Source: Promethearchaeota archaeon (GTDB lineage Archaea > Asgardarchaeota > Hermodarchaeia > Hermodarchaeales > Hermodarchaeaceae). From it: DNA of 64,000 bases. Made by a program: the position numbers and the translations under genes. The notes beneath the pieces were generated by a model that did no database searches, was not told the DNA's origin, and was given only the letters and a program-made list of their open reading frames with translations. This document shows positions 8,731 through 64,000 of this stretch, in pieces. Every line of letters begins with the position of its first letter. Position 1 is the first letter of the stretch. The stretch lies in contig JBHLMG010000009.1 of the NCBI GenBank assembly GCA_048938385.1, positions 1-64,000 on the forward strand. Direction: 5' to 3'.

Positions 8731-8811
8731 GGCAAACCACCAAGCGACGAGGAGTGGCACCTGTTCGCTACTTTTATAGATTTCGGGTTTCCTCATACTC
8801 GAGACAAAGAT

Positions 8812-9945
8812 ATGAACCGTCATAAACGGATTATCACTAGACATCTATCTCGTTTCTTCTTACTCACTCTACTATGTGTTATTGTCTATGGGGGCGTTCC
8901 TCAAGTTCAACTCGTTAATGCTCACTCAGGATTAACCTCTCTTTGGGAATATTCCACGGCTCCCAATCAAGTGTCATTAGAATTTAACGGCACCGAGGCC
9001 TTCGTATATTTAGAGGCTCAATGCGATTTTGGGCCTCGCCCTCCTGGCTCGAGTAATCTTACCGCTTGCGGTGATTATATCATATCAATTCTGGAGGCTT
9101 ATGGGTGGCCGGTCCAAACGCAAACTTGGACCTACTTAGACACACCTCTACGAAATATCGTTGCAGGAGCCATAGCGCTACCAAGGTATGTACTACTCGC
9201 ACATTACGACACACGACCAATTGCTGAAATGGATCCAGATCCATTAAATCGGACCAGGCCTATTCTGGGTGCGAATGATGGCGCCAGTGGAGTCGCAACC
9301 CTTCTCGAACTCGCTGCTGTTCTTCCCCCCGAAGCCAAGAACTCTGTTGCTCTCCTTTTCGTTGACGCTGAAGATTCTGGCAATGTTAATGGCTGGGAAT
9401 GGATAGTTGGTTCTACTTACTATGTCAATGGGCTCAGCACGGTGCAGCGATTGAATATCCAAGCAGCGATTTTACTGGATATGATGGGTGATGCTGATCT
9501 ACAATTAAAACGGGAAGGGTATTCAACGCCTTCCTTAGCTAATGTTATCTGGCAGATTGCCACTGATCTCGTTTACGCAGATGTCTTCCTGAATGTATCT
9601 GGTTATAGCATACTTGATGATCATCATCCGTTCCTTGCTGTAGGTATTTCAGCTGTTGATATCATTGACTTTGACTATCCATACTGGCATACGCTAGCAG
9701 ATACCCCGGATAAATGCGCTCCTGAGTCTCTAGAAGCTGTTGGGCGTGTCGTTGAATCCTTCGTTGAACAGCAGCTAATAAACCCAACAATTTTCACTCC
9801 CACTCAACCATTGGTGATTCCTTATCTGGAGTTGTTACTGTTAGTTGTTGGATCTGCGATGATAGTAGGGTTGCTGATACTATTTATTTTCTGGCAAAAA
9901 AAACCAAAGAATGACTACCAAAAAATAGCTGGTTATTGTTGCTAA
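8812..9945 (+). CDS. M28-family peptidase / glutaminyl cyclase-like, membrane anchored
   Basis: AHYDTR, GANDGASG, DAED, LLDMMGD, DDHHPF, DFDYPYWHT; signal peptide and C-terminal TM; start reassigned to 8812. Confidence 0.85.
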   Translation: MNRHKRIITRHLSRFFLLTLLCVIVYGGVPQVQLVNAHSGLTSLWEYSTAPNQVSLEFNGTEAFVYLEAQCDFGPRPPGSSNLTACGDYIISILEAYGWPVQTQTWTYLDTPLRNIVAGAIALPRYVLLAHYDTRPIAEMDPDPLNRTRPILGANDGASGVATLLELAAVLPPEAKNSVALLFVDAEDSGNVNGWEWIVGSTYYVNGLSTVQRLNIQAAILLDMMGDADLQLKREGYSTPSLANVIWQIATDLVYADVFLNVSGYSILDDHHPFLAVGISAVDIIDFDYPYWHTLADTPDKCAPESLEAVGRVVESFVEQQLINPTIFTPTQPLVIPYLELLLLVVGSAMIVGLLILFIFWQKKPKNDYQKIAGYCC

Positions 9946-49307: not shown

Positions 49308-49805
49308 CTACTCTTCCTTCTTATCAAGACGAGGAGATTCCCAGTCCTTTCGGAGTGGATAGACATCCTTTGGCCAATCTTCAGGCAGAATCAACCGCTT
49401 TAGGTTTGGATGATCCTTAAACTTCACGCCTAGTAAGTCATGAACCTCGCGTTCGTAGAGAGTTGCACCTGGAATTAGAGGTGTGATTGAATCCACATCA
49501 GGATGCGATGTCGGAACTTGAATGTGAAGGCTCACCGAAACCGCTTTGACTTCGAAATGGTAAATTACGGCGAGTTCACCGCGTAGGTCCATCCCAGTAA
49601 TGCTTGAAAGGTGAGTCAACCCCCATTCCTGTTTCATCCAATCCACGGCCTTACGAACCGCTTCGGCTTTGACGGTAACATAGATGCTGTGTTCGCGTAG
49701 AAATTCTGCAGAGATGAAATCACTACCCAGGGCTTTTTCGATTTCAGTCATCATTTTTGCTTCTTTCGGGGTCGGTTTCCTTGCAGGTTTTTCTTCACTT
49801 GCCAT
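49308..49805 (-). CDS. NuoC-like subunit of a complex I-like / group 4 hydrogenase
   Basis: HLSSITGMD, YEREVHDLLGVKFKDHPNLKRL, YPLRKD. Confidence 0.88.
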   Translation of the reverse strand: MASEEKPARKPTPKEAKMMTEIEKALGSDFISAEFLREHSIYVTVKAEAVRKAVDWMKQEWGLTHLSSITGMDLRGELAVIYHFEVKAVSVSLHIQVPTSHPDVDSITPLIPGATLYEREVHDLLGVKFKDHPNLKRLILPEDWPKDVYPLRKDWESPRLDKKEE

Positions 49806-49827
49806 TTTCTTTCACTCCATTCACTCA

Positions 49828-50262
49828 CTATCCACCCTTGAGCTTTCCAAGGAGTGCTGCTACACCGTAAATAATGGCTTCAGGTTTTGGAGGACATCCC
49901 GGAATCCAAGCGTCCACTGGAATTACACCATCCAGTCCACCTGTCACATTATAGCATTGTCGGAACACGCCACCAGACATGGTACAGGCGCCGATGCCCA
50001 CCACAAATTTCGGTTCAGGCGTTTGATTGTAAATCCGTAAAAACCGTTCAGCAACCTGTTTGGTAATTGGTCCGCTACAAAGTAAGACATCTGCGTGACG
50101 CGGGCTACCTTTTAAGAGGACACCAAATCTTTCAAGGTCATATCGTGGAGTTAACGCATCAAGGATCTCAATGTCGCAGCCATTGCATCCACCTGAGTTT
50201 AGATGGAGTACCCATGGTGACTTGATGCGTGCCCAAGTAACAAGTTTTGATAAGACACCCAT
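49828..50262 (-). CDS. NuoB-like / group 4 [NiFe]-hydrogenase small subunit
   Basis: GCNGCDIE, YDLERFG, SPRHAD, IGAC, IPGCPPKPE; start reassigned to MGVLSK at 50262 behind a GGAGG. Confidence 0.9.
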   Translation of the reverse strand: MGVLSKLVTWARIKSPWVLHLNSGGCNGCDIEILDALTPRYDLERFGVLLKGSPRHADVLLCSGPITKQVAERFLRIYNQTPEPKFVVGIGACTMSGGVFRQCYNVTGGLDGVIPVDAWIPGCPPKPEAIIYGVAALLGKLKGG

Positions 50263-50406
50263 TATGATAGCCTCCAATCTGGGCGTTGCTAACCTAAACC
50301 TATGCCTCGTCTTAAAACCCTTTGGGTGTTTTGGAATGCTAAATCGAAATCCTTTGAATGTATTGCTCAAGTATTAGTACGAAAGATGCCTTCGGGGCTG
50401 GCATGT

Positions 50407-50739
50407 TTATTTCCGAAGGATTAGGATTGCAATGAATGCGACAAGAAGATAGATGATGGGAACCCATCCAAGGACGCCCATTGATGTGGCGAGGATGAAC
50501 GCGATGATGTCAAAGATTGTAAAGTACACAGCATAGCGGAGAAGCTGTGTGTGGAATTGTGCCTTTATAGCGGGTAAGTCTTCTCCACAAGCGTAAGTTG
50601 TGGTCTTTTCTTTGGTGGGGTTGCTTGGGGCAAGTCTTCGTCCAATCCAGTAAAGTAACAGGACAATTATGAGCATTATACCAAAGGCTAACAAGAAGTT
50701 GAGGAAATTTGAAAAGGTGTTAGACCAGGCAAATTGCAA
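50407..50739 (-). CDS. NuoA-like membrane subunit
   Basis: Three TMs; KTTTYACGE; YFTIFD. Confidence 0.85.
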   Translation of the reverse strand: MQFAWSNTFSNFLNFLLAFGIMLIIVLLLYWIGRRLAPSNPTKEKTTTYACGEDLPAIKAQFHTQLLRYAVYFTIFDIIAFILATSMGVLGWVPIIYLLVAFIAILILRK

Positions 50740-50907
50740 TCTCCGTCACCACGATAATGGCTTGTTAGAAGTCAAAGGGTTCTAGATTGTATAAAAGGCT
50801 TGCTCCCACTGGAAATTTCTGTTAAAGATAAAACTGAAGGTCTTCTCAATAAATGGGTTAAGGTCGGGTAAAGGGGGCTTCTGCTGCAAGTATTTTGTAA
50901 TATCGTG

Positions 50908-51075
50908 CTAATCGGAAATTTCGATGCGGATTTTCTCAGAGCCTTTCAGTTTTGGTGCGCGGAGCGTGGAGACTATGGCAAAGACCACTTTTTGAATAAG
51001 TGTATCAGTGTATTCGTTTAATCCAATCTCTCGGTCGAAAACGACCAGAGTTGTCTTCTTCTCATCTGGAGTCAT
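50908..51075 (-). CDS. 55-aa protein resembling the C-terminal domain often fused to archaeal MobB (not in the ORF track)
   Basis: MTPDEKKTTLVVFDREIGLNEYTDTLIQKVVFAIVSTLRAPKLKGSEKIRIEISD; ATGA overlap with the mobB stop. Confidence 0.6.
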   Translation of the reverse strand: MTPDEKKTTLVVFDREIGLNEYTDTLIQKVVFAIVSTLRAPKLKGSEKIRIEISD

Positions 51076-51629
51076 GCAGATTCACCTAACTTTATTCTTG
51101 GGGCAGTTGGAAGCCACTTATCGATGGCTTCTAGGAGAAAAGGTAACTCATTTGGAATATGTACGGCTGCTTCGATATTAGGGTCTAGGGAACATTGACC
51201 GAGTATTGGTCCTGTAGTTGTAGTTTGGAACTTCGCTATTTCTTCTGATGACCGGACGCAAATAATCTTGGCAATTTTTGGATGCGTTTGGGTCCAAAAA
51301 CGGAACCCCTCAAGGACAATCACATCAGCTGAAACTACATGAGTTCCGCGTCGTAAGAGGTCAACTGGATCAACGATGGGTCGTTGAAAAAGTAGGGTTG
51401 TTGATGATTCGCTTTGAAGAAATGTCGCTGAAGCACCAGCTTCGAGATGTCGATATGAATCAGTGCCGGGGGTATCAAGGGAAAATTGTGGGTCACCTAC
51501 ATGTTTTGCACTGAGGATGCCTAGGTTCTGCTGCGAAAGGTGAGTAATGATGTGGGCAGTGACTGTAGTCTTACCCGAGTCCTTGTATCCAATTACCGAG
51601 AGTATCGGAGGGAATGAAACGATAAGCAG
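51072..51629 (-). CDS. mobB: Molybdopterin-guanine dinucleotide biosynthesis protein B, non-canonical start
   Basis: Frame stays open upstream of the listed ORF: ILSVIGYKDSGKTT (P-loop), AKH, DTPGTDSYRHLEAGA, VIVLEGF; only CTG (51629) or ATC (51623) available after GGAGG. Confidence 0.8.
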   Translation of the reverse strand: MLIVSFPPILSVIGYKDSGKTTVTAHIITHLSQQNLGILSAKHVGDPQFSLDTPGTDSYRHLEAGASATFLQSESSTTLLFQRPIVDPVDLLRRGTHVVSADVIVLEGFRFWTQTHPKIAKIICVRSSEEIAKFQTTTTGPILGQCSLDPNIEAAVHIPNELPFLLEAIDKWLPTAPRIKLGESA

Positions 51630-51821
51630 TCCTCCCTAAAGACGAGTTACCTTCAGAAGTGAAAAGGTAACCCTGAGTATTAAACTTTTCAACATCTTGA
51701 GCACCAAAACAACGCTTTTCCGGTTGGATGAGAAAAAATGAAACAGGTAGTCACACTTTTAAGCAGAATGGACAGAAAAGCGGGTCTAAGGTACTCAAGT
51801 CACCGTGACGAGGGTCCAACG

Positions 51822-52172
51822 ATGTCGTTATCGCGTACTGTGGTCGTTGGTCTACTTGCTATTATAGCAGTAGCCATTGTTTTGTTTATTCTGATGCTCG
51901 CTGGGTTTATCCAGTTCGCTACTTATGGTTTATTATTCATTACGGTGATCTTTGCCATCCTCGCCATTGAAGACAAAGACCTCTTACACGCTGCACTCTA
52001 CCTCGCAGGCTCTGCCATTGCCCTGGCTCTAATATACTTGGTTCTGTTCGCACCTTGGGTCGCTTTCTTCCAACTAGCGATATACGCGGGCGCAGTCACC
52101 ATTATCCTGGTTTCGGCTGTAGCGTTAACGGCGCGTCGTGGGACTGGTGAAGTTGAGGAGGATGCGTCATGA
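51822..52172 (+). CDS. NuoJ N-terminal half / MbhD-like subunit
   Basis: DLLHAAL, APWVAFFQLAIYAGAV; start reassigned to MSLSR. Confidence 0.75.
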   Translation: MSLSRTVVVGLLAIIAVAIVLFILMLAGFIQFATYGLLFITVIFAILAIEDKDLLHAALYLAGSAIALALIYLVLFAPWVAFFQLAIYAGAVTIILVSAVALTARRGTGEVEEDAS

Positions 52173-52450
52173 AAATTAAAGTGGTTGGCCTGTTTCTCAC
52201 AATTGTACTTGCCGTGTTCATGGTTGTGTTTATTAGTTTTGGATTTGGGGATTGGTTACTTGCCTCACCAGACCCTGCGACAGTGGCAACGCGGTTCATA
52301 TTACCAGAGAATATCATTGTGCTAATCCAGAGCTTAAGTAACATGTTATGGCATTACCGTGGCATCGACATGGTGCTACAGGGAGTGTTCTTGTTCGTCG
52401 CAGCACTTGCTGCGTCTGTCTTTTTCCATGGAGTGGTCAAGGAGGAGTAA
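52169..52450 (+). CDS. NuoJ C-terminal half / MbhE-MnhB-like subunit
   Basis: LWHYRGIDMVLQ resembles the YRGxD motif; ATGA coupling to the upstream gene. Confidence 0.65.
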   Translation: MKIKVVGLFLTIVLAVFMVVFISFGFGDWLLASPDPATVATRFILPENIIVLIQSLSNMLWHYRGIDMVLQGVFLFVAALAASVFFHGVVKEE

Positions 52451-52456
52451 GAGAAA

Positions 52457-52792
52457 ATGCAAGCGCTTGATACGATTGGTGTTCCACTTTCTGGGTTCCT
52501 TGCTGTCGCGGTCATCCTGTATGTCATTGGCATCTATGGGATGGCGACGAAACGTAATATGATCAAGTTCCTCATTTCACTGGAATTACTCCTTGATGGA
52601 GCGCATTTGAACTTCATCGTCTTTGCCACTATCTGGTCGGGTGGGTATATCGACCTGATGGTCCAAGCAATCGTCATCGCAAGTATTTGTATCGGCGGTG
52701 GAATCATCGCAATTGGGCTTGGATTCATCATTAGTGCTTACAATAAATTCGGAACGCTGGATGTCCGAAAACTCAACAAACTGCGTCATTAA
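52457..52792 (+). CDS. NuoK/MnhC-like subunit
   Basis: GIYG..KRNMIK..ISLELL; GTLDVRKLNKL. Confidence 0.85.
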   Translation: MQALDTIGVPLSGFLAVAVILYVIGIYGMATKRNMIKFLISLELLLDGAHLNFIVFATIWSGGYIDLMVQAIVIASICIGGGIIAIGLGFIISAYNKFGTLDVRKLNKLRH

Positions 52793-52812
52793 CCCTGGGG
52801 TGAACGAGAAAA

Positions 52813-54963
52813 ATGCTACCTTACGCTGCTTGGCTTTGTTGGGGATTCCCCCTGCTAGGGGCTGTCCTCACACCGCTCTTTGCAAAAATCCATCCAAAGC
52901 TTCGGGATTACGGAGCCATCGTCTTTGGCTTACTAGGCATGATCATGGCCTTCTCCATGATTCCATTCATTTATTCTGGAGATGCCTGGCTTGGGACTCA
53001 ATGGCTAGAAATTTCTATTCCTTGGATTAACATCCCAGGTGTTCTTACACTGGAATGGGGAATGCTCATTGACCCGTTATCCGTTTTCATGGCCTGTGTA
53101 GCAACCGGTGTCAGCTTCCTCATCCTTGTATACAGCCTTGGTTACATGCACGGTGATGAATCGCTCACTCGTTACTGGTTTTTCATGCAACTGTTCATTG
53201 GTGGAATGGTTCTCCTTGTTATGGCGAACAACCTCCTCCAAACTTTCATTGGCTGGGAAATCGTAGGGCTCTGCTCCTACGCCCTCATCGGCTTCTGGTA
53301 CAACAAGCCCAACATGGTTATAGACGATCAACTAGGTGAAATCACCGAAGGAAGGCTAAACTCACACAGTGGTATGAAAGCCTTCATCGTTACCCGTGTT
53401 GGAGATGTCGCCCTCCTTATTGCCATCGTCTTTATCTTCTTCTTCACTGTTCAAGCAGGAACTCCCACCTTCAACTACCAAGTTCTCCTTTCAGACTTCA
53501 CCTGGCTTGGAACCATGGCTCAGGCGATTAGTGCTTTTCCTGGCCTATTACTATTCGTGGTGTTCCTCCTCTTCTTTCTGGGACCCATTGGAAAAAGCGC
53601 GCAATTCCCCTTACAGTTCTGGCTCCCGGAAGCCATGGCAGGTCCAACCACCGTCTCCGCCTTGATCCACGCTGCTGCAATGGTCAAAGCTGGTGTCTAT
53701 CTGGTTGCTCGAATGGCCCCAATCCTTGTACAGGGCTTCCACACGGTAGCGATCGCAACAGCTATTGTTCAACAGGCTCTTAGCAACTTCTTCTATGTTA
53801 TCGCCATAATCGGGACTTTCACCGCTTTTATGGCGGCAAGCATGGCTTTGGTCTCTAAGGAGCTCAAGAAGGTTCTTGCTTTCAGCACCATTAGCCAACT
53901 CGGTTATATGTTCATGGCAATTGGTGTGTTCGCCATCGCTGCTGAAGGAGCAGCAGGATACGCTGCGGGGGTCTTCCATTTAGCTGCCCATGCTGTCTTT
54001 AAAGCACTCCTCTTCTTGTCCGCAGGGGCTGTGCTCCACGCAGTTCATAGCAAATACATGACGGATATGGGCGGGATCCGAAAAGCAATGCCGATTACCT
54101 TTATTGTAATGATCATTGGTGCTCTAGCCTTGAGTGGCTTCCCGCCCCTAGCAGGCTTTTGGAGCAAGGAAGCCATCTTTTCTGCTGCCTGGGAATTGGG
54201 AGTTATGGGCAACATGACAGGTTACATCTTCCTCCTCTTCGCTGCCCTAACTGGTGTATTGACCTTCTTCTACAGTCTTCGTATGATTGGTATGACCTTC
54301 CTTGGTTCACCAAGTGAGAATGTTGAGAAACTAGCTGCAGAAGGGAAACCTGTGCATGAAGCGCCCCTAGTAATGTGGTTACCTTTAGTAATTCTTGCTA
54401 TCACTACAGTGGTTCTTGGATTTCTTGAACCGTTCCTGAAGACATTCTTTCTAGGTGAATGGGCTCTTCAATTCTCAGGGATACCTCATGCTCCCCACAT
54501 AGGTTCACTTATCGAGATGTATGTAGAACTCTTCGTTCACACCTTTACCTCACCCACATTCCTGATTACCCTTGGCGTGTTAGCCCTTGGCGGCATCCCC
54601 GGATACCTCATCTACATTCGCCAAAGTTGGACACCCGCAATTAGTGAGAAGAACTTCCTGTATCGGTTCTTATACAAACGTTGGTACTGGAACGGGCTCA
54701 TGTACAAGATCTTTGTCAGTGGCACTCTTTGGTTTTCACGGGGAATGTTCAAGACTGTTGAAGCAAAAGGCATCGACCAGTTCAACTATGTTGTGGCTGA
54801 TGGTGCCACAGGGCTAAGCCGCTGGTGGCGTCGAATTCAAACCGGTGTGCACAGCTGGAACATGATTCTGCTGCTCATTGGTGCTGTGGTCTTCGTAGCA
54901 CTCCTCATCTTGTTTCAATTTGTAGGAGGCGTGCTACTTCTTCCAATTCCCTTCATACCCTGA
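52813..54963 (+). CDS. NuoL/MrpA-like antiporter subunit
   Basis: YSLGYM, WEIVGLCSY, KSAQFPLQFWLPEAMAGPTTVSALIHAA, STISQLGY; lateral helix plus terminal TM. Confidence 0.92.
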   Translation: MLPYAAWLCWGFPLLGAVLTPLFAKIHPKLRDYGAIVFGLLGMIMAFSMIPFIYSGDAWLGTQWLEISIPWINIPGVLTLEWGMLIDPLSVFMACVATGVSFLILVYSLGYMHGDESLTRYWFFMQLFIGGMVLLVMANNLLQTFIGWEIVGLCSYALIGFWYNKPNMVIDDQLGEITEGRLNSHSGMKAFIVTRVGDVALLIAIVFIFFFTVQAGTPTFNYQVLLSDFTWLGTMAQAISAFPGLLLFVVFLLFFLGPIGKSAQFPLQFWLPEAMAGPTTVSALIHAAAMVKAGVYLVARMAPILVQGFHTVAIATAIVQQALSNFFYVIAIIGTFTAFMAASMALVSKELKKVLAFSTISQLGYMFMAIGVFAIAAEGAAGYAAGVFHLAAHAVFKALLFLSAGAVLHAVHSKYMTDMGGIRKAMPITFIVMIIGALALSGFPPLAGFWSKEAIFSAAWELGVMGNMTGYIFLLFAALTGVLTFFYSLRMIGMTFLGSPSENVEKLAAEGKPVHEAPLVMWLPLVILAITTVVLGFLEPFLKTFFLGEWALQFSGIPHAPHIGSLIEMYVELFVHTFTSPTFLITLGVLALGGIPGYLIYIRQSWTPAISEKNFLYRFLYKRWYWNGLMYKIFVSGTLWFSRGMFKTVEAKGIDQFNYVVADGATGLSRWWRRIQTGVHSWNMILLLIGAVVFVALLILFQFVGGVLLLPIPFIP

Positions 54964-54974
54964 GGTGACACAAA

Positions 54975-56483
54975 ATGGCACTATTCCACTATCTCTCATT
55001 CACGCTGTTGCTCATGTTCATCGGTGCTCCAATCGCCTGGATCATTGGGCGCCGTAACGGTCGCTGGGCAGGTGTCTTTGCCCTTCTTATCATGCTAGTC
55101 AGTATGGTCACCTTTGGTCTTGCCTGGTGGGAAACGCAACTTGCCGGCACCTATATGGAAGAATTCGTTTTGACCCCCACGCTAGGACCGTTTGGCTGGT
55201 ACCTTGACGGATTGAGTTCTGTCGTAGGCTGGATCATCCTCTTCCTTACTACTGCTGCAACCTGCTATTCCATCGCCTACATGGCGAAAGAACATGGCCA
55301 ATCCCGGTTCTTTGCATTACTTCTCATGTATAACGCTGGCATCCTCGGTGTCGTGTTGGCAACGAACCTATTTGAGTTCTACATCCTTTGGGAAATCATG
55401 CTCATACCCAGCTACTTCCTTATTGCAGAATGGGGTACTAAACCCCAATCCACAAAAATCGCCCTCAAATACTTCATCTTTACACACATTGGTGCTGTGC
55501 TAATTCTCGTTGGTATCGCCGGCATCTATTCACTGAGCAGTCCTGCTAGCCTAAACTTGTTTTCGACACTGGTTTCAACAATTGACCTCAGTGGGTCTAT
55601 GACTGTGGGAACGCTAGCCTTCGATTTAGCTCGCATCATCACAGTTCTCTTAACAATTGGGTTCGCTGTTAAGATGGCTATCTTTCCCTTGCACACCTGG
55701 CTCCCCGATGCCCATGCCGAAGCTCCGACGCCTATTAGCGTCATCTTATCTGGCGTGATGATTGAAACCGCTGCTTACGCAATCATTCGAATCTTGATGA
55801 CCTTCATGCTTCCTGCGTATGGAAGCTTCAGCACCATTCTCATGTTCTTTGGACTCATAACCATGATTTATGGTGGTATAATGGCTCTAGCCCAAAAGGA
55901 TACCAAACGCCTTTTCGCCTACTCGTCAGTGTCACAAATGGGCTACATTTTCTTTGGTGTAGGCACAGCCCTTCTGATTGGAACCGTTGGAGCCGCCTTT
56001 CACATCTTTACACACGCCCTAGGTAAAGGCCTCTTGTTTATGACTGCTGGCGTCCTCATCGTTCAAATTGGCCATGAACGGGGACGGGATATTACGGCTA
56101 TGGGCGGTTTAGGGCGCAAGATGCCTTGGACTGCCACCATTGCTCTCATCGCAGGCTTAAGCATCGCTGGCACACCACCCCTCGCCGGGTTCGCTTCAGA
56201 GTTCTGGATCTTTGTGGGCGGAGCCCTCGGTTATGCTGTCTTAATGTTAATCTTTGCTGTTGCCTCCACTGCACTTACAGCTTCATACATACTCTGGTTT
56301 GTGAAGCGTGTATTCTTCGGTCCTACCCCCGCAGATCTTGAGAAAGTTACAGACAGCCCATTACTCATGCGTATCCCTATGATCATCCTTGCGCTCCTGA
56401 TCATCATCTTAGGAGTATGGCCCGCATTAGTACTTGATCCACTATATCAGGCACTGAGTTTGCTTCCTACCCTGGTCCCATAA
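54975..56483 (+). CDS. NuoM/MrpD-like antiporter subunit
   Basis: WEIMLIPSY, PLHTWLPDAHAEAPT, AYSSVSQMG, GFASEF. Confidence 0.92.
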   Translation: MALFHYLSFTLLLMFIGAPIAWIIGRRNGRWAGVFALLIMLVSMVTFGLAWWETQLAGTYMEEFVLTPTLGPFGWYLDGLSSVVGWIILFLTTAATCYSIAYMAKEHGQSRFFALLLMYNAGILGVVLATNLFEFYILWEIMLIPSYFLIAEWGTKPQSTKIALKYFIFTHIGAVLILVGIAGIYSLSSPASLNLFSTLVSTIDLSGSMTVGTLAFDLARIITVLLTIGFAVKMAIFPLHTWLPDAHAEAPTPISVILSGVMIETAAYAIIRILMTFMLPAYGSFSTILMFFGLITMIYGGIMALAQKDTKRLFAYSSVSQMGYIFFGVGTALLIGTVGAAFHIFTHALGKGLLFMTAGVLIVQIGHERGRDITAMGGLGRKMPWTATIALIAGLSIAGTPPLAGFASEFWIFVGGALGYAVLMLIFAVASTALTASYILWFVKRVFFGPTPADLEKVTDSPLLMRIPMIILALLIIILGVWPALVLDPLYQALSLLPTLVP

Positions 56484-56499
56484 TGGAGGTTGAAATGAG

Positions 56500-58080
56500 A
56501 TGGCTATCGGAATAAATGAATGGATTCAACTCATCCCCCTCTGGTTACCTCTCGTCGGCGCACTCTTCCTCGCGCTCATCGGTCGACTCACAAAAGAACG
56601 AAACAAAGTGCTCCTTGGGGCAATCTCTGTCGTAATTTTGTTCATTGCCCTCTGGTTCCTCATTTCACCCTTTCCGCCCTTTCAAGGACTCTACTTCCAG
56701 CTCGTCAACGCTGGTTTCACTCCTATTGATATCGTCTACTTCGTGACAACGCCACTGGACCCAAGCATAGGAGCCGCCTTCTTGCGAATCGACATTCTCT
56801 CTGTCTTCATGTCTGTCATCTTCATATTCTTAGGCTTCTTCGTCGCCCTCTACTCCATTAAGTACATGGAACATGACACTCGGTTATCCATCTACTATGC
56901 CCTTCTCCTCACACTCGTTGGAGGAATGGTGGGGGTCACCATGGCAGGCGATTTCTTCACATTGTTCATCCTTTGGGAAACGATGTCAATAAGCAGCTAT
57001 GTTTTAGTCGCCTTCCGGAAAGACGAAGCAGAACCTCTTGAAGCCGGCATCAAGTACCTCTTTCTTAGCGCTGTGGGTTCCACGCTCATCCTCTTCACCA
57101 TGTCACTTCTCTACGGGCTCACAGGCACTTTGAATATCTACCAAATCGGTCCAGCACTTTCTTTGATCGTTGGAGGCGCCACTCCTGGTTCTCCAATCCA
57201 GGGCCTTCTCCTCATCACCATCGTTGGTCTCATCATCGGGTTCGGCGTCAAAGCGGCAATTGCTCCACTTTCCACCTGGCTTCCAGACGCCCATCCTGCT
57301 GCTCCTAGTGGCATCAGTGCCATGCTCAGCGGCGTCGTCATCATGACAGGTGCTTATGCTATTATTCGCACACTTATCCTCTTCTATAATCCCGCGGACT
57401 TTCCCTACTATGGGGCCGTAGTCAGCTGGTTTGCCCTCTTCACCATGATCTATGGAAACCTCATGGCACTGACACAAAAGGATCTGAAACGGCTTCTAGC
57501 CTATTCAACTATAGTAAATGTCGGTTACATCATCTACGGGTTCAGTATTGCGATGATGCAGGTAGCTCAGCCTGCCCAACTCACCTCCGTCACAGGAAGC
57601 CTGTTCCACATTACAGCCCATATGCTCTCAAAGGGCATGCTCTTCTTGATCTCAGGAATTTTCTTACACTCTCTACATACCCGGGATCTCGATAAACTCC
57701 GCGGCGTAGGTCGTAAAATGCCACTGACCATACTCTGTTTGACGATTGGTGCTCTGTCCCTTGCAGGGGTACCTCCCCTCATCGGATTCTATAGCAAATT
57801 CTTCATCATTTGGGGCGCCATCCAAGCAGGTGCATACATTGCCACAATCATCCTGGTGCTCATGAGCGCGTTCAGCGTAGTCTATTACTTACGCATTATC
57901 CAAGTCCTCGTCTTCGCCGAGCCCAGCCCTGAGGCTGCCACCGTCAAACCCACACACCCAATCCTTCTATTTGTTATCAGCGTACTCACAATCTTCATCA
58001 TCGGTATCGGGCTGTTTCCCGGCTTCTTCATTGAAGTAGCCGAATTTGCCGCTCAAGGTGCTCTTGGGCTGCTTCCCTAA
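56500..58080 (+). CDS. NuoN/MrpD-like antiporter subunit
   Basis: WETMSISSY, EAGIKY, WLPDAHPAAPS, KRLLAYST, GVPPLIGFYSK. Confidence 0.9.
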   Translation: MAIGINEWIQLIPLWLPLVGALFLALIGRLTKERNKVLLGAISVVILFIALWFLISPFPPFQGLYFQLVNAGFTPIDIVYFVTTPLDPSIGAAFLRIDILSVFMSVIFIFLGFFVALYSIKYMEHDTRLSIYYALLLTLVGGMVGVTMAGDFFTLFILWETMSISSYVLVAFRKDEAEPLEAGIKYLFLSAVGSTLILFTMSLLYGLTGTLNIYQIGPALSLIVGGATPGSPIQGLLLITIVGLIIGFGVKAAIAPLSTWLPDAHPAAPSGISAMLSGVVIMTGAYAIIRTLILFYNPADFPYYGAVVSWFALFTMIYGNLMALTQKDLKRLLAYSTIVNVGYIIYGFSIAMMQVAQPAQLTSVTGSLFHITAHMLSKGMLFLISGIFLHSLHTRDLDKLRGVGRKMPLTILCLTIGALSLAGVPPLIGFYSKFFIIWGAIQAGAYIATIILVLMSAFSVVYYLRIIQVLVFAEPSPEAATVKPTHPILLFVISVLTIFIIGIGLFPGFFIEVAEFAAQGALGLLP

Positions 58081-58117: not shown

Positions 58118-59635
58118 TCACTCTTTCTTCGTATTAGGCGATTTCAACCACCAATAAGTATGAGATTTCGTATCTGCAAGTTCAAATCCTAACTCGTTAA
58201 GTTTTGTTCGAATACCATCGGCTTCTTGGTATTTGTTTTCCGCCCGAAGTTGAGCACGTTGTTGGAGTAAAGCTTCTATTAGTTGCTTTATCACAGGATC
58301 TATCTCGCTATCGATTTCTCGTTGGTAGAGGTCCCCAAACAGAATGATTCCTATCTTCGAAAAGAACGCAAGCAATGCTTGAGCAGAATTTGAACTTACA
58401 GCTGATGGTGTTTCCAACTGTCCTTGGATTCTGTTCACTAATCGAAAAAGGGTATTAATTGCTCGCCCCGTGTTAAAATCATCCAGTAAGGCTTCTTCTA
58501 TAGCTACCTCTACTTCTTGGAATGAAGTATCCTGTTCAATAGTTTTCTCAGAGGGTTCTGCGAATTCAGCAAGTGCACGAAGATGGACGAGAACTTTCCG
58601 TAACCGTTCGACTTGTTTACGAACGCGTTTAAGCTCAGCTTCTTTAAAGGTCAAGGGTTTCCGATAGTGCATTGAAAGTAAGTAAAGCCGCAATGTCGCT
58701 GCTCCAAACCGGTTCACAGCCTCTCGCACGGTGATCAGATTTCCTACCGACTTGGACATTTTCTCTCCATCGAGTTTCAGATGGCGAACATGCATCCAAT
58801 AACGAACATACGGCTTCTCGTTTGCTGCTTCACTTTGAGCGATTGAATTCTCATGATGCGGAAAGATATTATCCTCACCACCCCCCGAAATATCTAGTGT
58901 ATCTCCCAGATACTTTTTCGCCATAGCACTGCATTCAAGGTGCCAGCCTGGGCGTCCTGGACCCCACGGACTCCACCAGAAAGGCTCATCAGGTTTCGCC
59001 TGCTTCCAAAGGACAAAATCCCCCACCTGATCCTTATCGTACTCGTCTTTGTCAACCCGTCCACTTGCCCCTGCCTGAAGCTTCTGAGGATCAATCCCTG
59101 CAAGGCGACCGTACGCAGGGAATCTGCTTATCCGAAAGTACACCCCGTCGTCTGCTTCATAAGCAACTCCTTTCTCTAGAAGAGTTTGAACTAAGTGGAT
59201 CATCTCTTGTATGTGCTGTGTTGCGATAGCATAAGTAGAGGGATCTGCAATACCTAGTAGCTGTCGATCCATGTAGTAATTCCTGGTTTGACGAGTGACT
59301 AGTTGTTGGAAGGCTTCACCGCTGGCTTGAACGCGATTCAAGATGTTGTCATCGACGCTGATGTCTGTCACATTCGAGATGTGCTTGACTTCATAGCCAA
59401 GATACTGAAGAAAACGTTCAACCACATCCCAGAATATGTAAGTCCGTGCATGCCCTATGTGCATCAAGTAGTTAACTGTCAACCCACAGGTATACATACG
59501 AATCTTCCCAGGCTCAATTGGTGTGAATCTCTCCTTTTGCTTCGTCAGAGTATTGTAAATTCTAAGTGTTGATCGTCGGTTCCATTCGCTCGTTCTTGGA
59601 TGAAGGGATGTTGGAGGATTCCGCTTCGATGTCAT
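58118..59635 (-). CDS. cysS: Cysteinyl-tRNA synthetase
   Basis: YTCGLTV..HIGH, GRPGWHLECS, FPHHEN, KMSKS. Confidence 0.96.
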   Translation of the reverse strand: MTSKRNPPTSLHPRTSEWNRRSTLRIYNTLTKQKERFTPIEPGKIRMYTCGLTVNYLMHIGHARTYIFWDVVERFLQYLGYEVKHISNVTDISVDDNILNRVQASGEAFQQLVTRQTRNYYMDRQLLGIADPSTYAIATQHIQEMIHLVQTLLEKGVAYEADDGVYFRISRFPAYGRLAGIDPQKLQAGASGRVDKDEYDKDQVGDFVLWKQAKPDEPFWWSPWGPGRPGWHLECSAMAKKYLGDTLDISGGGEDNIFPHHENSIAQSEAANEKPYVRYWMHVRHLKLDGEKMSKSVGNLITVREAVNRFGAATLRLYLLSMHYRKPLTFKEAELKRVRKQVERLRKVLVHLRALAEFAEPSEKTIEQDTSFQEVEVAIEEALLDDFNTGRAINTLFRLVNRIQGQLETPSAVSSNSAQALLAFFSKIGIILFGDLYQREIDSEIDPVIKQLIEALLQQRAQLRAENKYQEADGIRTKLNELGFELADTKSHTYWWLKSPNTKKE

Positions 59636-59902: not shown

Positions 59903-61858
59903 ATGAATACAGAGTTAATGGTGAAAGCCGTGTCACCAATGCTGTCAGCGAAAATGAGCAGTTTTATTGCGATCACACTAGATTTTGATGTTGACTCAGC
60001 ACTTCGCCTTATTGCCCAAACTGGACTCGCTCATTTTTCAGACATCAAACAAAGCAGTCGCAATCTTTCACAAGGCCTAGAACCTGTGGAACCTTCAGAA
60101 CGTTTCTATTATCTTTCCAATCTTCTAACCCGCACAACTACCCTCATCAATGATATGAAGGTCAATCGCGGTGGTAAAATTAAAAATCCTCTAAAGGTCC
60201 CTGAAATCCCTGAAGACAGCTATTTAGAATCCATCGAAACGAAACTTAAGAAAATCGAAGATGAATTCGAGGGCCATACTCGTAGCTTAGAAATAGCTGC
60301 ACGGAAAGAGGATAAAGCTTCCAAAAAAGAAGCTAAAAAACATATCAAAGAATTAACCGAAGAGAAACGTCTGGAGCTATTAGGCTGGGAAGAACTACTC
60401 AAACGTGAACACAGCTTGGAAGAGACTAAGACGCTCTTTTACAAAACAAAACGAACCTACATCATGTATGGCTGGATTCCCACTAAGAAAATTAAATCTC
60501 TGGAGAAAGCTATTGCGCAACAAAAACAAGTCTCCCTTTCCATTGAATTCGAAGCACATAAAGACAAACCAGAATCCGGTCACTATCCAGCTGATGTTGG
60601 TCCTCTCGAAGGGGAAGTTGCTCCAGAAGAACCAATTGCACCCCCGACAAAACAAACAAATCCCCGTTTTCTCCGATCCTTCCAAAACCTTACAAACGCC
60701 TTCGGATTACCCAACCACCGTGAAATTGACCCCGCTTGGTTCATGGCACTCGGATTCCCCATAATCTTCGGCCTTATGTTTGGCGACATCGGACATGGAT
60801 TACTCCTCTTCGGTTTTGCTATGATTGGTATGATAGCAAAACGCCGCAATGTTGACGCTGGTGAAATGATCAATTACTTCATTCAAGGATCTGGGCTCAT
60901 CGCACTCATCGCTCTTGTCTCGGTCTTTTTTGGAGTATTATACGGTGAATTTCTTGGTATCGATATCACTTACCTTCCCATCTACCAGGCACTCAAATAC
61001 TCACCCTTCGGGCAAGCAATGAAAAATGTCCTAGTCAACCTTTTTCTCTTCTTCGACTTTGATGGTGGAGTAAATTGGTTCCTCGACCCGCATAGTCCTT
61101 ACAACCTCTGGATCCTCGGTGATCCTCATGGTCACCCCACCCCTATCTGGTTCAGCGCCTTCGAAATGCCTGCTAACCTCCCCGCCAACATCGCCAATCC
61201 TACCTGGATCCTTTTTGTCCTCAGCATCATTATCGGCTTCATCCACCTAAGCATTGCCATTGGGTTCGATGCCATCAACAAGCTTCGCCACCGTGACTGG
61301 AAACACGCCATCTTCGGTCCCATCATCTGGCTCTATTTCCTATGGGGACTTGCCTTTATGATCTTTCAATTTGGAATTAACTTCATGGCTTGGCCACTTA
61401 TTGAAATGCTCATCGCGCTCATCCTCCCCGCTGTCATCATGTTCCTCGGAGGCATGGTCGCCTTCGGGTTCATGGATGGCTTTATGGAAGGTCTCGAGCG
61501 TCTTATCGAGAGCATCAGTAACACCATCAGTTACTCTCGAATTCTTGCCCTCAACATGGCACATGCAGGCTTCGCTAAAACCTTCATCTTTCTCGCAGGC
61601 TTTACAGGAGCTGTTGAGCTTTTTAACATCCTCGAACAACTCTTCCCCGCTGGACAACTCAATTTCGGAACCTTCCTTACATTTATTGGCATGATCATTC
61701 TTGGCACTGTCTTCGTCCTCCTCATGGAAGGCCTCCTCTCGTTCATCCATACCCTTCGTCTCCACTGGGTGGAAGCTTACCTGAAATTCTACGCAGGGAC
61801 CGGCTACGAGTACAAACCTCTCACCCTACCACAAAAATGGACGACAACGCCTACATAA
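59903..61858 (+). CDS. atpI: A/V-type ATP synthase subunit I (a)
   Basis: FGLMFGDIGHG, SNTISYSRILAL (essential Arg), HTLRLHWVE..KFY.G.G. Confidence 0.95.
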   Translation: MNTELMVKAVSPMLSAKMSSFIAITLDFDVDSALRLIAQTGLAHFSDIKQSSRNLSQGLEPVEPSERFYYLSNLLTRTTTLINDMKVNRGGKIKNPLKVPEIPEDSYLESIETKLKKIEDEFEGHTRSLEIAARKEDKASKKEAKKHIKELTEEKRLELLGWEELLKREHSLEETKTLFYKTKRTYIMYGWIPTKKIKSLEKAIAQQKQVSLSIEFEAHKDKPESGHYPADVGPLEGEVAPEEPIAPPTKQTNPRFLRSFQNLTNAFGLPNHREIDPAWFMALGFPIIFGLMFGDIGHGLLLFGFAMIGMIAKRRNVDAGEMINYFIQGSGLIALIALVSVFFGVLYGEFLGIDITYLPIYQALKYSPFGQAMKNVLVNLFLFFDFDGGVNWFLDPHSPYNLWILGDPHGHPTPIWFSAFEMPANLPANIANPTWILFVLSIIIGFIHLSIAIGFDAINKLRHRDWKHAIFGPIIWLYFLWGLAFMIFQFGINFMAWPLIEMLIALILPAVIMFLGGMVAFGFMDGFMEGLERLIESISNTISYSRILALNMAHAGFAKTFIFLAGFTGAVELFNILEQLFPAGQLNFGTFLTFIGMIILGTVFVLLMEGLLSFIHTLRLHWVEAYLKFYAGTGYEYKPLTLPQKWTTTPT

Positions 61859-61873
61859 CCCACGTGACCAATT

Positions 61874-64000
61874 ATGCTCCAACAACTCCTCCTTAACATG
61901 GGTCAAGTCTACACCGCATTTGGTGCTGTTCTCGCGGCTGGACTCGGAGCTGCAGGAGCTGCCATAGGCATCGGCTACAGTGGAAGCGCCATGATTAGCG
62001 CGGTAGCTGAAAAACCTCAATCCTTCAGTAAAAGCATGATCACAGTGGTTCTTGCTGAAGCTCTCGCTATCTATGGACTCCTCGCCAGTTTCATGCTTCT
62101 TATGCGCATCGGGACAATCACTAACGAAGCCCAAGGCCTCGTCGCTCTTGGTGCTGGACTGGCCATCGGTTTATCGTGCATTGGTGCTGGCATCGGTATC
62201 GCACGAGCAGGTAGCGCTATGGCGACAGGCACCGCAGCTGCCCCCGAAACTTTCAGCAAAGCCCTCGTCTCCGTCGTCCTCGCTGAGGCCCTTGCTATCT
62301 ATGGGCTTCTCACTAGCTTTATGCTTCTTATGCGCGTCGAAACGGCATCCTACATCGGACAAGGTCTGGTAGCAATCGCCGCAGGGTTAGGCATTGGGTT
62401 AGCAGCCCTCGGTGCTGGCGTCGGTATATCAAAAACTGGAGCAGCTCTCAACAAAGCCCTAGCTACTGCTCCTGAAACCTTCAGCAAAGGCTTAGTAGGC
62501 GTCGTGTTAGCCGAAGCCCTGGGTATCTACGGCTTGCTCTCGAGTTTCATGCTGCTCATGCGCATTGAAACCGTCACACTCCAAAGCCAAGGATTCATAG
62601 CAATCGCTGCTGCCTTCGGTGTAGGACTGGCTGCCCTTGGTGCTGGCATTGGTATCGCGTCGAGCGGGGCCTCGTTATCAGAAAGCCTGACCAAACGCCC
62701 AGAAATCTTCAGTAAGGGTTTGGTCAGCGTCGTGTTAGCCGAAGCCCTAGGTATCTACGGCTTGCTCTCGAGTTTCATGCTGCTCATGCGCATTGAAACC
62801 GCTACAGCAATCGCTCAAGGACTAGCTGGAATTGGTGCTGGATTAGCTGTCGGAATCGCAGGTTTTGGGGCTGGTATCGGTATTGCCCAAGCCGGTGGCG
62901 CACTCAGCAAAGCCCTCGTCGAAGCCCCTGAAGCCTTTAGTAAGGGTTTGGTCAGCGTCGTGTTAGCCGAAGCCCTGGGTATCTATGGGCTCTTAGCGAG
63001 CTTCATGTTGCTCATGCGCATCGAATCCGTCGCAATAGCGGCACAAGGATACCTTGCGGTTGCAGCAAGTCTAGGTGTAGGTTTAGCAGCATTCGGTGCT
63101 GGTATCGGTATCGCCTCCGCAGGAGCAGCCTTATCACAAAGCCTTGTCGATCGTCCTGAAGTATTCAGCAAGGGCTTGGTCAGCGTCGTGTTAGCCGAAG
63201 CCCTGGGTATCTATGGGCTCTTAGCGAGCTTCATGTTGCTCATGCGCATCGAATCCGTCACTGAAATCGGTCAAGGACTAGTGGGTTTATCTGCTGCACT
63301 TGCCATCGGACTTGCTGCAATTGGTGCAGGGTTTGGCATTGCCAAGGCAGGCGCGTCTATTAATAGAACACTTGTTGTCGCTCCTGAAGCCTTCAGTAAG
63401 GGTTTGGTCAGCGTCGTGTTAGCCGAAGCCCTGGGTATCTACGGGTTGTTAGCCAGCTTCATGTTGTTGATGCGTATTGAGTCGGTCACAGGGATAGGTC
63501 AAGGCTTCATGGGAATGGCAGCCGCTATCTCGGTTGGTATTGCTGGTATTGGCGCGGGTATCGGTATAGCTTTTGCAGGCCAGGCACTTTCGCAAAGCCT
63601 TGGTGAGCGGCCTGAAATCTTCAGTAAAGGTCTAATCGGCGTCGTTCTCGCTGAAGCTCTCGCCATCTATGGTTTACTGGCAGGTTTCATGTTGCTGATG
63701 CGTATCGACACGATTAACATCGATATCAGTATAGGTATGAGTCAAGGCGTCGTCGGAATTGGCGGGGGCATCGCAATTGGGCTCGCGGCATTTGGTGCGG
63801 GAATTGGCATTGCCCAAGCAGGCGCAAGCATGTCTCGCACGATCGTTCACGCTCCTGAAACCTTCAGTAAAGGCCTCGTCAGCGTAGTGTTAGCAGAGGC
63901 ACTTGGCATCTATGGATTACTAACGAGTTTCATGTTGTTAATGCGAATAGATTCTGTAACTCAAATCGGTCAAAGTATCATTGCAATTGGTGCTGGACTT
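61874..64000 (+). CDS. atpK: A/V-type ATP synthase proteolipid subunit K (c) polyprotein with at least 9 complete fused hairpins and a 10th starting; truncated by the window end
   Basis: Open frame of 709 codons from ATG 61874 with no stop; motif FSKxxxxVVLAEAL[AG]IYGLLxxFMLLMR with Glu codons at 62057, 62285, 62513, 62741, 62969, 63197, 63425, 63653, 63896. Confidence 0.93.
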   Translation, partial: MLQQLLLNMGQVYTAFGAVLAAGLGAAGAAIGIGYSGSAMISAVAEKPQSFSKSMITVVLAEALAIYGLLASFMLLMRIGTITNEAQGLVALGAGLAIGLSCIGAGIGIARAGSAMATGTAAAPETFSKALVSVVLAEALAIYGLLTSFMLLMRVETASYIGQGLVAIAAGLGIGLAALGAGVGISKTGAALNKALATAPETFSKGLVGVVLAEALGIYGLLSSFMLLMRIETVTLQSQGFIAIAAAFGVGLAALGAGIGIASSGASLSESLTKRPEIFSKGLVSVVLAEALGIYGLLSSFMLLMRIETATAIAQGLAGIGAGLAVGIAGFGAGIGIAQAGGALSKALVEAPEAFSKGLVSVVLAEALGIYGLLASFMLLMRIESVAIAAQGYLAVAASLGVGLAAFGAGIGIASAGAALSQSLVDRPEVFSKGLVSVVLAEALGIYGLLASFMLLMRIESVTEIGQGLVGLSAALAIGLAAIGAGFGIAKAGASINRTLVVAPEAFSKGLVSVVLAEALGIYGLLASFMLLMRIESVTGIGQGFMGMAAAISVGIAGIGAGIGIAFAGQALSQSLGERPEIFSKGLIGVVLAEALAIYGLLAGFMLLMRIDTINIDISIGMSQGVVGIGGGIAIGLAAFGAGIGIAQAGASMSRTIVHAPETFSKGLVSVVLAEALGIYGLLTSFMLLMRIDSVTQIGQSIIAIGAGL
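61895..64000 (+). repeat. 228-nt (76-aa) coding tandem repeat, one unit 243 nt
   Basis: Exact 228-nt spacing of the Glu codons for units 1-8; 243 nt between units 8 and 9. Confidence 0.92.

What the first reader, a model, noticed from the sequence alone, without database searches (positions are those of the whole stretch)
61874..64000. Whole ATP synthase rotor ring encoded as one polypeptide (at least 10 fused c-hairpins)
Seen: directly after subunit I, an ORF absent from the track (it has no stop inside the window) runs 709 codons. It contains 9 complete 76-aa c-subunit hairpins and the start of a 10th, and every complete hairpin keeps the carboxylate in VVLAEAL[AG]IYG. Known: c subunits normally have 1 hairpin (F-type, many A-type), 2 (V-type, usually one Glu per pair) or 3 (Methanocaldococcus). 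The only ring-sized fusion I know of is the 13-hairpin protein of Methanopyrus kandleri. Inference: this non-Methanopyrus, Asgard-like archaeon evolved a single-chain rotor independently. That would fix the ring size genetically, with about 3.3 or more ions per ATP if the 10th hairpin also has the Glu.
Basis: partly seen in the sequence, partly recalled or inferred. Interest (0 to 1): 0.93.

Follow-up and report, generated by a model that had tools for sequence, protein, structure and literature searches.

The report
Fifteen-hairpin single-chain ATP synthase rotor
An Asgard archaeon (Hermodarchaeota) encodes the membrane rotor of its only ATP synthase as one 1147-residue protein of 15 fused proton-binding hairpins, the most found in any protein searched here, which would fix the ring size genetically at about 5 protons per ATP.

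Summary
The ORF starts at 61874, 15 nt after subunit I. It runs past the window edge to contig position 65317. It is 1147 aa and holds 15 PF00137 hairpins, each with the Glu in VVLAEAL.

It is not an assembly artefact:
- About nine distinct lineages (80-96% aa identity) from several studies have the same 15-unit layout with almost no indels.
- Synonymous sites are saturated (pS about 0.75) while pN is 0.06-0.09.
- Each of the 15 positions is orthologous across species.
- Contigs from four runs match it exactly.

It is the genome's only c gene, and single copies of A, B, C, D, E, F and I are present.

Hairpin trees, identities and ion-site motifs (A-E-A-L against P-E-T-Q in M. kandleri) place it with Asgard c subunits, not with the M. 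kandleri/DPANN fusions. An AU test of a shared clade is only borderline (p = 0.052).

The most likely function is a single-chain, H+-coupled c15 rotor. Ring closure is inferred, not shown.

Relatives carry 8-hairpin and 3+7-hairpin forms. Public data also hold many unpublished 12-13-hairpin fusions, but none above 15 was listed.

This scan had already met the same gene in another Hermodarchaeota genome. I found no paper describing it.

The parts
61874..64000 (+). A/V-type ATP synthase subunit c/K gene with 15 fused hairpins. The window holds units 1-9 and the start of unit 10. The gene continues to contig position 65317 (L007:6874-10317), 1147 aa in all.
   Evidence: Unit bounds in contig (= window) coordinates: u1 61874-62110, u2 -62338, u3 -62566, u4 -62794, u5 -63022, u6 -63250, u7 -63478, u8 -63706, u9 -63949, u10 -64177, u11 -64405, u12 -64633, u13 -64861, u14 -65089, u15 -65314. 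The stop is 65315-65317, followed by T-rich stretches.
59903..61858 (+). ATP synthase subunit I/a (stator, ion channel), 651 aa, ending 15 nt before the c gene.
   Evidence: PF01496, E = 6e-55. The nearest solved proteins are eukaryotic V-ATPase subunit a (E = 8e-28). Arg546, in the motif S-Y-S-R-I-L-A-L, aligns to the essential stator Arg.
62471..63624 (+). The most regular part of the array (units 3/4 to 8), with both 1-unit (228 nt) and 2-unit (456 nt) periodicity.
   Evidence: TRF: 73-75% matches. Units alternate between an 'A-P-E-[AT]-F' loop type and an 'R-P-E-[IV]-F' loop type.
49308..58080 (.). Complex-I-like (Nuo/Fpo-type) membrane-arm cluster: nuoA/B/C-like on the minus strand and nuoJ/K/L/M/N-like on the plus strand. 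This is bioenergetic context, not part of the rotor.
   Evidence: Pfam Oxidored_q4, q6, Complex1_30kDa, q3, q2 and three Proton_antipo_M.

Best explanation
The gene encodes the complete rotor ring of this archaeon's single A/V-type ATP synthase as one polypeptide. It has 15 covalently linked two-helix hairpins (30 transmembrane helices), each with a protonatable Glu on its outer helix. As the ring turns against subunit I (Arg546), each of the 15 sites would carry one H+. One turn would then move 15 H+ for 3 ATP, or 5.0 H+ per ATP, and that number would be set by the gene rather than by assembly. A ratio this high would allow ATP synthesis at a low proton-motive force: about 105 mV at 50 kJ/mol, against about 155 mV for a ratio of 3.3 (my own arithmetic). 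That would suit an energy-limited sediment anaerobe.

Shown: the gene, its 15 intact sites, its conservation under selection, its being the only c gene, the presence of the other subunits, and its Asgard-native origin.

Inferred: closure of one chain into one ring, H+ rather than Na+ coupling, and operation in the synthase direction.
For: Gene and hairpins:
- 1147-aa ORF with 15 PF00137 hairpins, all with Glu.
- It is the only PF00137 signal in a roughly 90%-complete genome.
- Single copies of I, C(d) and E lie on C36, A, B and F on C18, and D on C23.

Conservation:
- Ten orthologs align over 1147 columns with almost no gaps at 80-92% identity, and all 15 Glu are invariant.
- pS is 0.73-0.77 and pN is 0.06-0.09.
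- Each position forms its own cross-species group, using 14 label changes, the minimum possible.

Assembly:
- Contigs from four runs are 100% identical and bridge many unit junctions. They break only at 31-mers that recur within the gene.

Structure:
- The outer, Glu-bearing helix is nearly identical in all 15 units. The variable loop and inner-helix columns are still 0.82 conserved within a position.
- Two consecutive units align without large gaps to the four-helix eukaryotic V-type c (E = 3e-16). So the linker fits neighbouring places in a ring.
- AF2 gives 30 long helices with pTM 0.66. Its best Foldseek neighbours are designed single-chain helical barrels and toroids.

Coupling ion:
- The sites lack the helix-1 Gln, the Thr at E+1 and the Gln at E+2 that M. 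kandleri units keep.

Stator:
- The essential Arg is present.
Against: - No protein-level data exist. I could not obtain model coordinates, so contact between hairpins 1 and 15 was not measured, and the model's pLDDT is only 66.
- Close relatives have 8-hairpin genes, or 3- plus 7-hairpin gene pairs, as their only c genes. Rings in this family can therefore be built from more than one chain, and ring size is not known for any of them.
- H+ coupling rests on motif rules alone.
- Synthase versus pump direction is not addressed by any data here.
Confidence: 0.68

Rival explanations
1. The 15-hairpin chain is real, but the functional ring is not 'one chain = one ring'. It might combine with a second chain, or leave some hairpins outside the ring, so the ring size differs from 15.
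For: Sister lineages make do with an 8-hairpin gene, or a 3+7 pair, as their only c genes. An 8-hairpin ring would be smaller than the 12-, 13- and 20-hairpin examples named in this report (T. thermophilus, M. kandleri deduced, E. hirae), which suggests multi-chain rings in this family. First and last units are conserved as distinct types in all four architectures. That fits a generic head-to-tail seam that could also form between chains.
Against: Two chains would give 30 hairpins (60 helices), which is beyond the 8-17 (F/N-type) and 12-20 (A/V-type) ring sizes I recall. Two 8-hairpin chains give 16, close to 15, which argues for a ring of about 15-16 hairpins and so for one 15-hairpin chain per ring. 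All 15 sites and all 15 outer helices are kept identical under strong selection.
Confidence: 0.15
2. The polyprotein is cut after translation into single or few-hairpin c subunits, which then assemble into a ring of unfixed size.
For: None found here. It cannot be excluded from sequence.
Against: The linkers are only about 7 non-helical residues long and differ between positions, with no shared cleavage-like motif. Unit number and order have stayed fixed while synonymous sites saturated. There would be little reason for that if the units were released as equivalent monomers. Position-specific residues are conserved.
Confidence: 0.07
3. The array is an assembly or binning artefact: repeats mis-joined, or several c genes run together.
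For: The gene has internal exact repeats up to 92 nt long. No single Logan contig spans it. One relative bin (G017) holds a probably mis-binned copy.
Against: The same 1146-1149-aa, 15-unit ORF occurs in about nine distinct lineages from different studies and assemblers. The units are only 63% identical to each other on average at the nucleotide level. Independent contigs match with no differences, no alternative joints and no loose ends. Positional orthology is perfect.
Confidence: 0.02
4. The fusion was acquired by transfer from a Methanopyrus- or DPANN-type 12-13-hairpin gene and did not arise within Asgard archaea.
For: The AU test does not formally reject a joint Hermod+M. kandleri clade (p = 0.052). 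Only 76 columns are available.
Against: The ML tree puts the M. kandleri/DPANN/other fusions in a 100%-supported clade. Asgard single-hairpin c subunits lie between that clade and the Hermod units. The constrained tree is 35.6 lnL units worse. Hermod units are 41-45% identical to Asgard c against 30-36% to the other fusions, and share the Asgard x-E-A-[IL]-[AG]-I-Y site rather than P-E-T-Q. The adjacent subunit I is also of the eukaryote/Asgard-like type.
Confidence: 0.08

Closest known systems
Methanopyrus kandleri A-ATP synthase subunit K (1021 aa, 13 hairpins; deduced monomeric rotor). It is cited as reference 119 in bioRxiv 10.64898/2026.10.01.756066; from memory that reference is Lolkema & Boekema 2003.
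   Same: A ring-sized number of c hairpins in one ORF. Every hairpin keeps its carboxylate. It is the only c gene in the genome. The ion/ATP ratio is fixed by the gene.
   Different: 15 hairpins against 13, so 5.0 against 4.3 ions per ATP. The ion site is A-E-A-L with no polar Na+ ligands, against P-E-T-Q plus a helix-1 Gln. Identity is 29-34%. The two fall in separate clades of the hairpin tree. The host is an Asgard archaeon, not a hyperthermophilic methanogen.
Unpublished 12-13-hairpin c fusions in DPANN/'Nanoarchaeota'/'Euryarchaeota' MAGs (for example P0041, P0018, P0032)
   Same: Very long single-ORF c subunits of about 965-1190 aa.
   Different: They cluster with M. kandleri and carry P-E-T-Q-type sites. 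Some have an N-terminal PKD domain. None has more than 13 hairpins.
Eukaryotic V-ATPase proteolipid c (for example yeast 3j9t chain Y; human 6wlw)
   Same: The nearest solved sequences (E = 3e-16). Two consecutive Hermod hairpins align over the whole four-helix protein. The partner subunit I is also nearest to V-type a.
   Different: V-type c has 2 hairpins and only one Glu per pair, and about 10 separate chains form the ring. Here there are 15 hairpins, 15 Glu and one chain.
Large F-type and N-type c rings (c15 of Spirulina platensis; c17 of the Burkholderia N-ATPase; both from my own knowledge)
   Same: A ring of 15 or more hairpins, giving 5 or more H+ per ATP.
   Different: Those rings are built from separate 8-kDa monomers of F-type sequence. 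Their stoichiometry is set by packing, not by covalent linkage.

Membership tests
ATP synthase subunit c / proteolipid (Pfam PF00137), A/V-type subunit K | A two-helix hairpin matching the family model above its curated cut-off | tested here: met
   15 stretches, 717 bits in total against a cut-off of 24. Each stretch scores 56-67 bits in the six-frame search.
ATP synthase subunit c / proteolipid (Pfam PF00137), A/V-type subunit K | An ion-binding carboxylate in the middle of the second helix | tested here: met
   Glu within V-V-L-A-E-A-L in all 15 units, invariant in 10 orthologs.
ATP synthase subunit c / proteolipid (Pfam PF00137), A/V-type subunit K | Encoded beside the stator subunit I/a, in a genome that holds the other A1AO subunits | tested here: met
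   Subunit I ends 15 nt upstream and keeps the essential Arg. Genes for A, B, C, D, E and F are present.
ATP synthase subunit c / proteolipid (Pfam PF00137), A/V-type subunit K | Assembles into a ring that rotates against subunit a | not testable with these tools
   There is only a medium-confidence AF2 model (pLDDT 66, pTM 0.66) with toroid-like Foldseek neighbours. No coordinates were available.
Single-polypeptide rotor of the M. kandleri type | A ring-sized set of hairpins in one ORF, and no other c gene | tested here: met
   15 hairpins, with all PF00137 matches in the genome inside this ORF.
Single-polypeptide rotor of the M. kandleri type | Common descent with the M. kandleri/DPANN fusions | tested here: not met
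   The two groups fall in separate clades (95 and 100 SH-aLRT). Identities are lower and site motifs differ. The AU test of a joint clade gives p = 0.052, which is borderline.
Single-polypeptide rotor of the M. kandleri type | A Na+-type site (helix-1 Gln; E-T-Q on helix 2) | tested here: not met
   Hermod units have Ile, Ala and Leu at these three places.
V-type (eukaryote-like) duplicated proteolipid | One carboxylate lost per pair of hairpins | tested here: not met
   Every hairpin keeps its Glu.

The most novel reading that the evidence does not exclude
Hermodarchaeota hold a natural series of rotor architectures that share the same first and last hairpins: one chain of 15, one chain of 8 (probably two per ring, giving 16), and a 3+7 pair. 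The number of internal hairpins was changed by unequal recombination of a two-hairpin block. The 15-hairpin form would be a true monomeric c15 ring with the highest coupling ratio among the A/V-type enzymes compared here (5 H+/ATP). Its 15 individually conserved cytoplasmic loops would dock the asymmetric central stalk in one fixed register, which is impossible for rings made of identical monomers.
Probability: 0.4. Interest if true: 0.85.

Novelty: new variant of a known kind. Interest (0 to 1): 0.72.

Why it matters
The number of ion sites in the rotor ring sets how many ions an ATP costs. In nearly all organisms that number comes from how separate subunits pack, and it cannot be read from a genome. 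Here it is written in the gene as 15.

This is the largest single-chain rotor found in a profile search of 1.84 billion representative proteins. It arose separately from the only published case. It also sits in Asgard archaea, whose ATPase subunits a and c are the closest prokaryotic relatives of the eukaryotic V-ATPase parts among the solved structures compared here.

[quoted passage not shown] This gene is a concrete candidate at 5.0.

The sister 8-hairpin and 3+7 forms offer a ready-made comparison for testing how ring size is determined. A single-chain ring of defined size would also be a convenient object for structural and single-molecule work.

Tried and rejected
- **RNA evidence.** No RNA holder was listed for the gene, so nothing can be said about expression.
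- **Read mapping.** Only Logan contigs of four runs from one study could be laid, and that study may be the source of the assembly. No single contig spans the gene. No raw or long reads were available.
- **Ring closure.** The AF2 model is of medium confidence and its coordinates are not exposed. Foldseek against the PDB gave no match at E <= 0.001. The top rows were designed helical barrels and toroids with low TM scores.
- **'8 + 7 gene fusion' for the 15-mer.** Rejected. Units 8 and 9 do not resemble terminal units.
- **Whole-gene duplication of an 8-mer.** It fits the second half of the gene (positions 12-15 against units 5-8) but not positions 6-8. Amplification of the internal unit-4/unit-5 pair fits better, and direction (8 to 15, or 15 to 8) stays open. 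On the subunit-I tree the genus-1 8-mers nest among 15-mer lineages.
- **AU test of a Hermod+M. kandleri clade.** p = 0.052, not a formal rejection.
- **Literature.** Five full-text searches found no description of a fused c subunit in Hermodarchaeota or other Asgard archaea. Subscription-only papers are not covered.
- **Complex prediction.** Not used. The 8-mer dimer exceeds the size limit, and hairpin-to-hairpin packing would pass merely by likeness to solved rings.

Full report
**Observation**

The window is G000:C36:1-64000, part of a 95,075-bp contig. The frame opening at ATG 61874 is open to the window's end: 709 codons. Reading on in the contig, it closes at TAA 65315-65317. That gives 1147 aa with no N, followed by T-rich stretches.

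The motif V-V-L-A-E-A-L occurs 15 times, 76 aa apart except for one spacing of 81 and one of 75. Cutting after each F-M-x-x-M-R-x motif gives 15 units of 75-81 aa. Pfam PF00137 (ATP-synt_C) matches in 15 stretches, E = 1.4e-221. TRF reports periods of 228 and 456 nt. The true count is 15, and every hairpin keeps the carboxylate.

**Is it real?**

- Unit divergence. The units are only 63% identical on average at the nucleotide level (maximum 83%). The longest exact internal repeat is 92 nt.
- Independent contigs. Logan contigs from four runs of one sediment study match with zero differences, no alternative joints and no loose ends. They bridge many unit junctions, for example 8415-9120 and 9156-9802 in L007 coordinates. 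They break only where 31-mers recur within the gene.
- Other genomes. Stronger evidence comes from relatives. The same 1146-1149-aa, 15-hairpin ORF lies after subunit I in G001, G002, G004, G007 and G014, and also in G017, although G017's contig is probably a mis-binned copy of the G002 lineage (99.6% nt identical; see 'A family of architectures'). It also appears in P0003-P0006 from NCBI and JGI. That makes about nine distinct lineages at 80-96% aa identity.
- Selection. Ten of these orthologs align over 1147 columns almost without gaps, and all 15 Glu are invariant. Between species, synonymous sites are saturated (pS 0.73-0.77) while pN is 0.06-0.09, so dN/dS is about 0.035 or lower.
- Positional orthology. 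In a tree of units, each of the 15 positions forms its own cross-species group. This needs 14 label changes, the minimum possible. The array was therefore complete before these species split and has not been homogenised since.

**Organism and enzyme**

Record titles of relatives found through subunit I read Hermodarchaeota, or other Asgard labels.

All PF00137 signal in this roughly 90%-complete genome lies in this ORF. Single genes exist for subunit I (59903-61858), C/d and E on the same contig, A, B and F on C18, and D on C23. So this is one complete A/V-type enzyme with scattered genes.

Subunit I is nearest to eukaryotic V-ATPase subunit a (E = 8e-28). It keeps the essential Arg, at position 546 in S-Y-S-R-I-L-A-L. 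By sequence, the nearest solved proteins to the rotor are eukaryotic V-type c (E = 3e-16). Two consecutive Hermod hairpins align across that whole four-helix protein, so the inter-hairpin linker has the length used for neighbouring hairpins in real rings.

Upstream lies a complex-I-like cluster, which is a chemiosmotic setting.

**Ion site**

Aligned with M. kandleri units, the Hermod units have Ile where M. kandleri has the helix-1 Gln. They read A-E-A-L where M. kandleri reads P-E-T-Q. Under the established Na+-site rules (Mulkidjanian et al. 2008, PMC2359735, listed but not opened here; cited from memory), the polar Na+ ligands are missing. H+ coupling is therefore the likely reading, as an inference.

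**Origin**

In a hairpin-level ML tree, all Hermod units lie on one side of a starred branch, together with 2-hairpin c subunits of other Asgard lineages. M. kandleri, DPANN and other long fusions form a separate clade with 100% support. Asgard single-hairpin c subunits lie between the two.

Hermod units are 41-45% identical to Asgard c and 30-36% identical to the other fusions. They share the Asgard x-E-A-[IL]-[AG]-I-Y motif. Forcing Hermod and M. kandleri together costs 35.6 lnL units, but the AU p-value is 0.052, which is borderline on 76 columns. Among 251 Asgard genomes from 28 families, eight or more hairpin matches occur only in this family. An independent origin within Asgard archaea is the best reading.

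**A family of architectures**

- Three species of the same genus (G003, G011, G012) have a 617-630-aa, 8-hairpin gene as their only c gene. The sister genus has an 8-hairpin form in G017, and G016 holds a contig-cut fragment (3 hairpins) that resembles its C-terminal units.
- G015 and G018 (sister genus) have two overlapping genes. One has 3 hairpins behind a roughly 310-aa N-terminal domain with a signal-peptide-like start and many N-x-S/T sites, and no Pfam match. The other has 7 hairpins.
- First units and last units of all four forms group by position. Units 1-3 and 6-8 of the 8-mer correspond to positions 1-3 and 13-15 of the 15-mer. The extra units are copies of the internal unit-4/unit-5 pair, which matches the 456-nt periodicity.
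- On a subunit-I tree, the genus-1 8-mers nest among 15-mer lineages, so hairpin number has changed more than once.
- G017's 15-type contig is 99.6% identical to G002's and carries an identical subunit I. It is probably mis-binned.
- Two 8-hairpin chains would give 16 hairpins, close to 15. I read this as a hint that the family's ring holds about 15-16 hairpins. That is inference.

**Mechanism**

The outer, Glu-bearing helix is almost identical in all 15 units, as expected if each must present the same face to subunit I in turn. Differences between positions are concentrated at the end of helix 1 and in the cytoplasmic loop. Those columns are still 0.82 conserved within a position across species, despite saturated synonymous change. 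That fits hairpins with individual, fixed places under the asymmetric central stalk.

AF2, run on 10 orthologs, predicts 30 long helices with pLDDT 66 and pTM 0.66. The best Foldseek rows are designed single-chain helical barrels and toroids (prob 1.0, TMt 0.38-0.44, none at E <= 0.001). That is compatible with a toroid but is not proof of closure.

If one chain forms one ring, the enzyme moves 15 H+ per 3 ATP.

**How unusual?**

A 2026 review preprint still gives M. kandleri (1021 aa, 13 hairpins, ratio 4.3) as the extreme. Five literature searches found nothing on Asgard fused c subunits.

Databases, however, contain many unpublished 12-13-hairpin proteins from Methanopyrus, DPANN and other archaeal MAGs. 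They also hold 6-hairpin proteins with PKD domains from Thermoplasmatota, and a 10-hairpin protein from Vampirococcus.

In a profile search that read 1.84 billion representative proteins, the window's protein scored highest, with 15 stretches. Next came proteins with 12, 10 and 8 stretches. None of the 150 listed has more than 15.

This scan had already reported a 1146-aa, 15-hairpin gene in another Hermodarchaeota genome, and 8-hairpin genes in a further genome. My analysis was done independently and agrees.

**Verdict**

This is a real, strongly conserved gene with 15 hairpins. It is most likely a monomeric H+-coupled c15 rotor, of independent Asgard origin. It is a new variant of a known kind. 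Ring closure, the uncleaved state, the coupling ion and the direction of operation all still need experiments.

Noticed in passing
L041:2523-4139:- (G015) and the same gene in L045 (G018); the 7-hairpin gene follows, overlapping by 8 nt: In the sister genus, the c function is split into two genes placed after subunit I. The first has 3 hairpins behind a roughly 310-aa N-terminal domain with a signal-peptide-like start and many N-x-S/T sites, and no Pfam match. The second has 7 hairpins.
   Followed up: partly
L030:3027-4916:-, L038:3111-5000:-, L039:2823-4673:-, L044:362-2293:-: 8-hairpin c genes (617-644 aa, all with Glu) are the only c gene in G003, G011 and G012. On the subunit-I tree they nest among 15-hairpin lineages. 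This implies either a monomeric c8 ring or, more likely, a two-chain c16 ring.
   Followed up: partly
P0017-P0048, P0050-P0072: Many apparently undescribed 12-13-hairpin c fusions occur in DPANN/'Nanoarchaeota'/'Euryarchaeota' MAGs, some with an N-terminal PKD domain. There are also 6-hairpin proteins with PKD domains in Thermoplasmatota and a 10-hairpin protein in Vampirococcus.
   Followed up: partly
window 49308-58080: A complex-I-like cluster split into two divergent parts (nuoA/B/C-like on the minus strand, nuoJ/K/L/M/N-like on the plus strand). It is separated from the ATPase I-K pair only by a minus-strand cysteinyl-tRNA synthetase gene (58118-59635).
   Followed up: partly
G000:C36 65421-66362 (-), 69213-70262 (-), 71446-72024 (+); C18 39426-43880; C23 178320-178895: The ATP synthase genes are scattered. 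I-K is followed by a methyltransferase and ThiF, not by E-C-F-A-B-D. C(d) and E lie 4-6 kb downstream on different strands. F, A and B are on another contig, and D is on a third.
   Followed up: partly
L043 (G017:C282) versus L029 (G002:C9): The G017 bin holds both a 15-hairpin and an 8-hairpin I-K locus. The 15-type gene is 99.6% nt identical to G002's and its subunit I is identical. This is probably a mis-binned contig, not two ATPases in one cell.
   Followed up: yes
window 59903-61858 and 61874 onward: Both membrane subunits (I/a and c) are closer by sequence to solved eukaryotic V-ATPase subunits than to solved bacterial or archaeal A/V-type ones. For subunit I the E-values are 8e-28 against 1e-4. 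For c they are 3e-16 against 6.5e-12 (E. hirae) and about 5e-8 (T. thermophilus).
   Followed up: no
L046 (G035:C10:138-638) and L047 (G020:C14): Other Asgard families have 2-hairpin c subunits that keep both Glu. The second hairpin of G035's protein resembles the terminal Hermod units (K-P-x-x-F-S-K-S-M...A-E-A-I-A-I-Y). It may be close to the ancestor of the fusions.
   Followed up: partly
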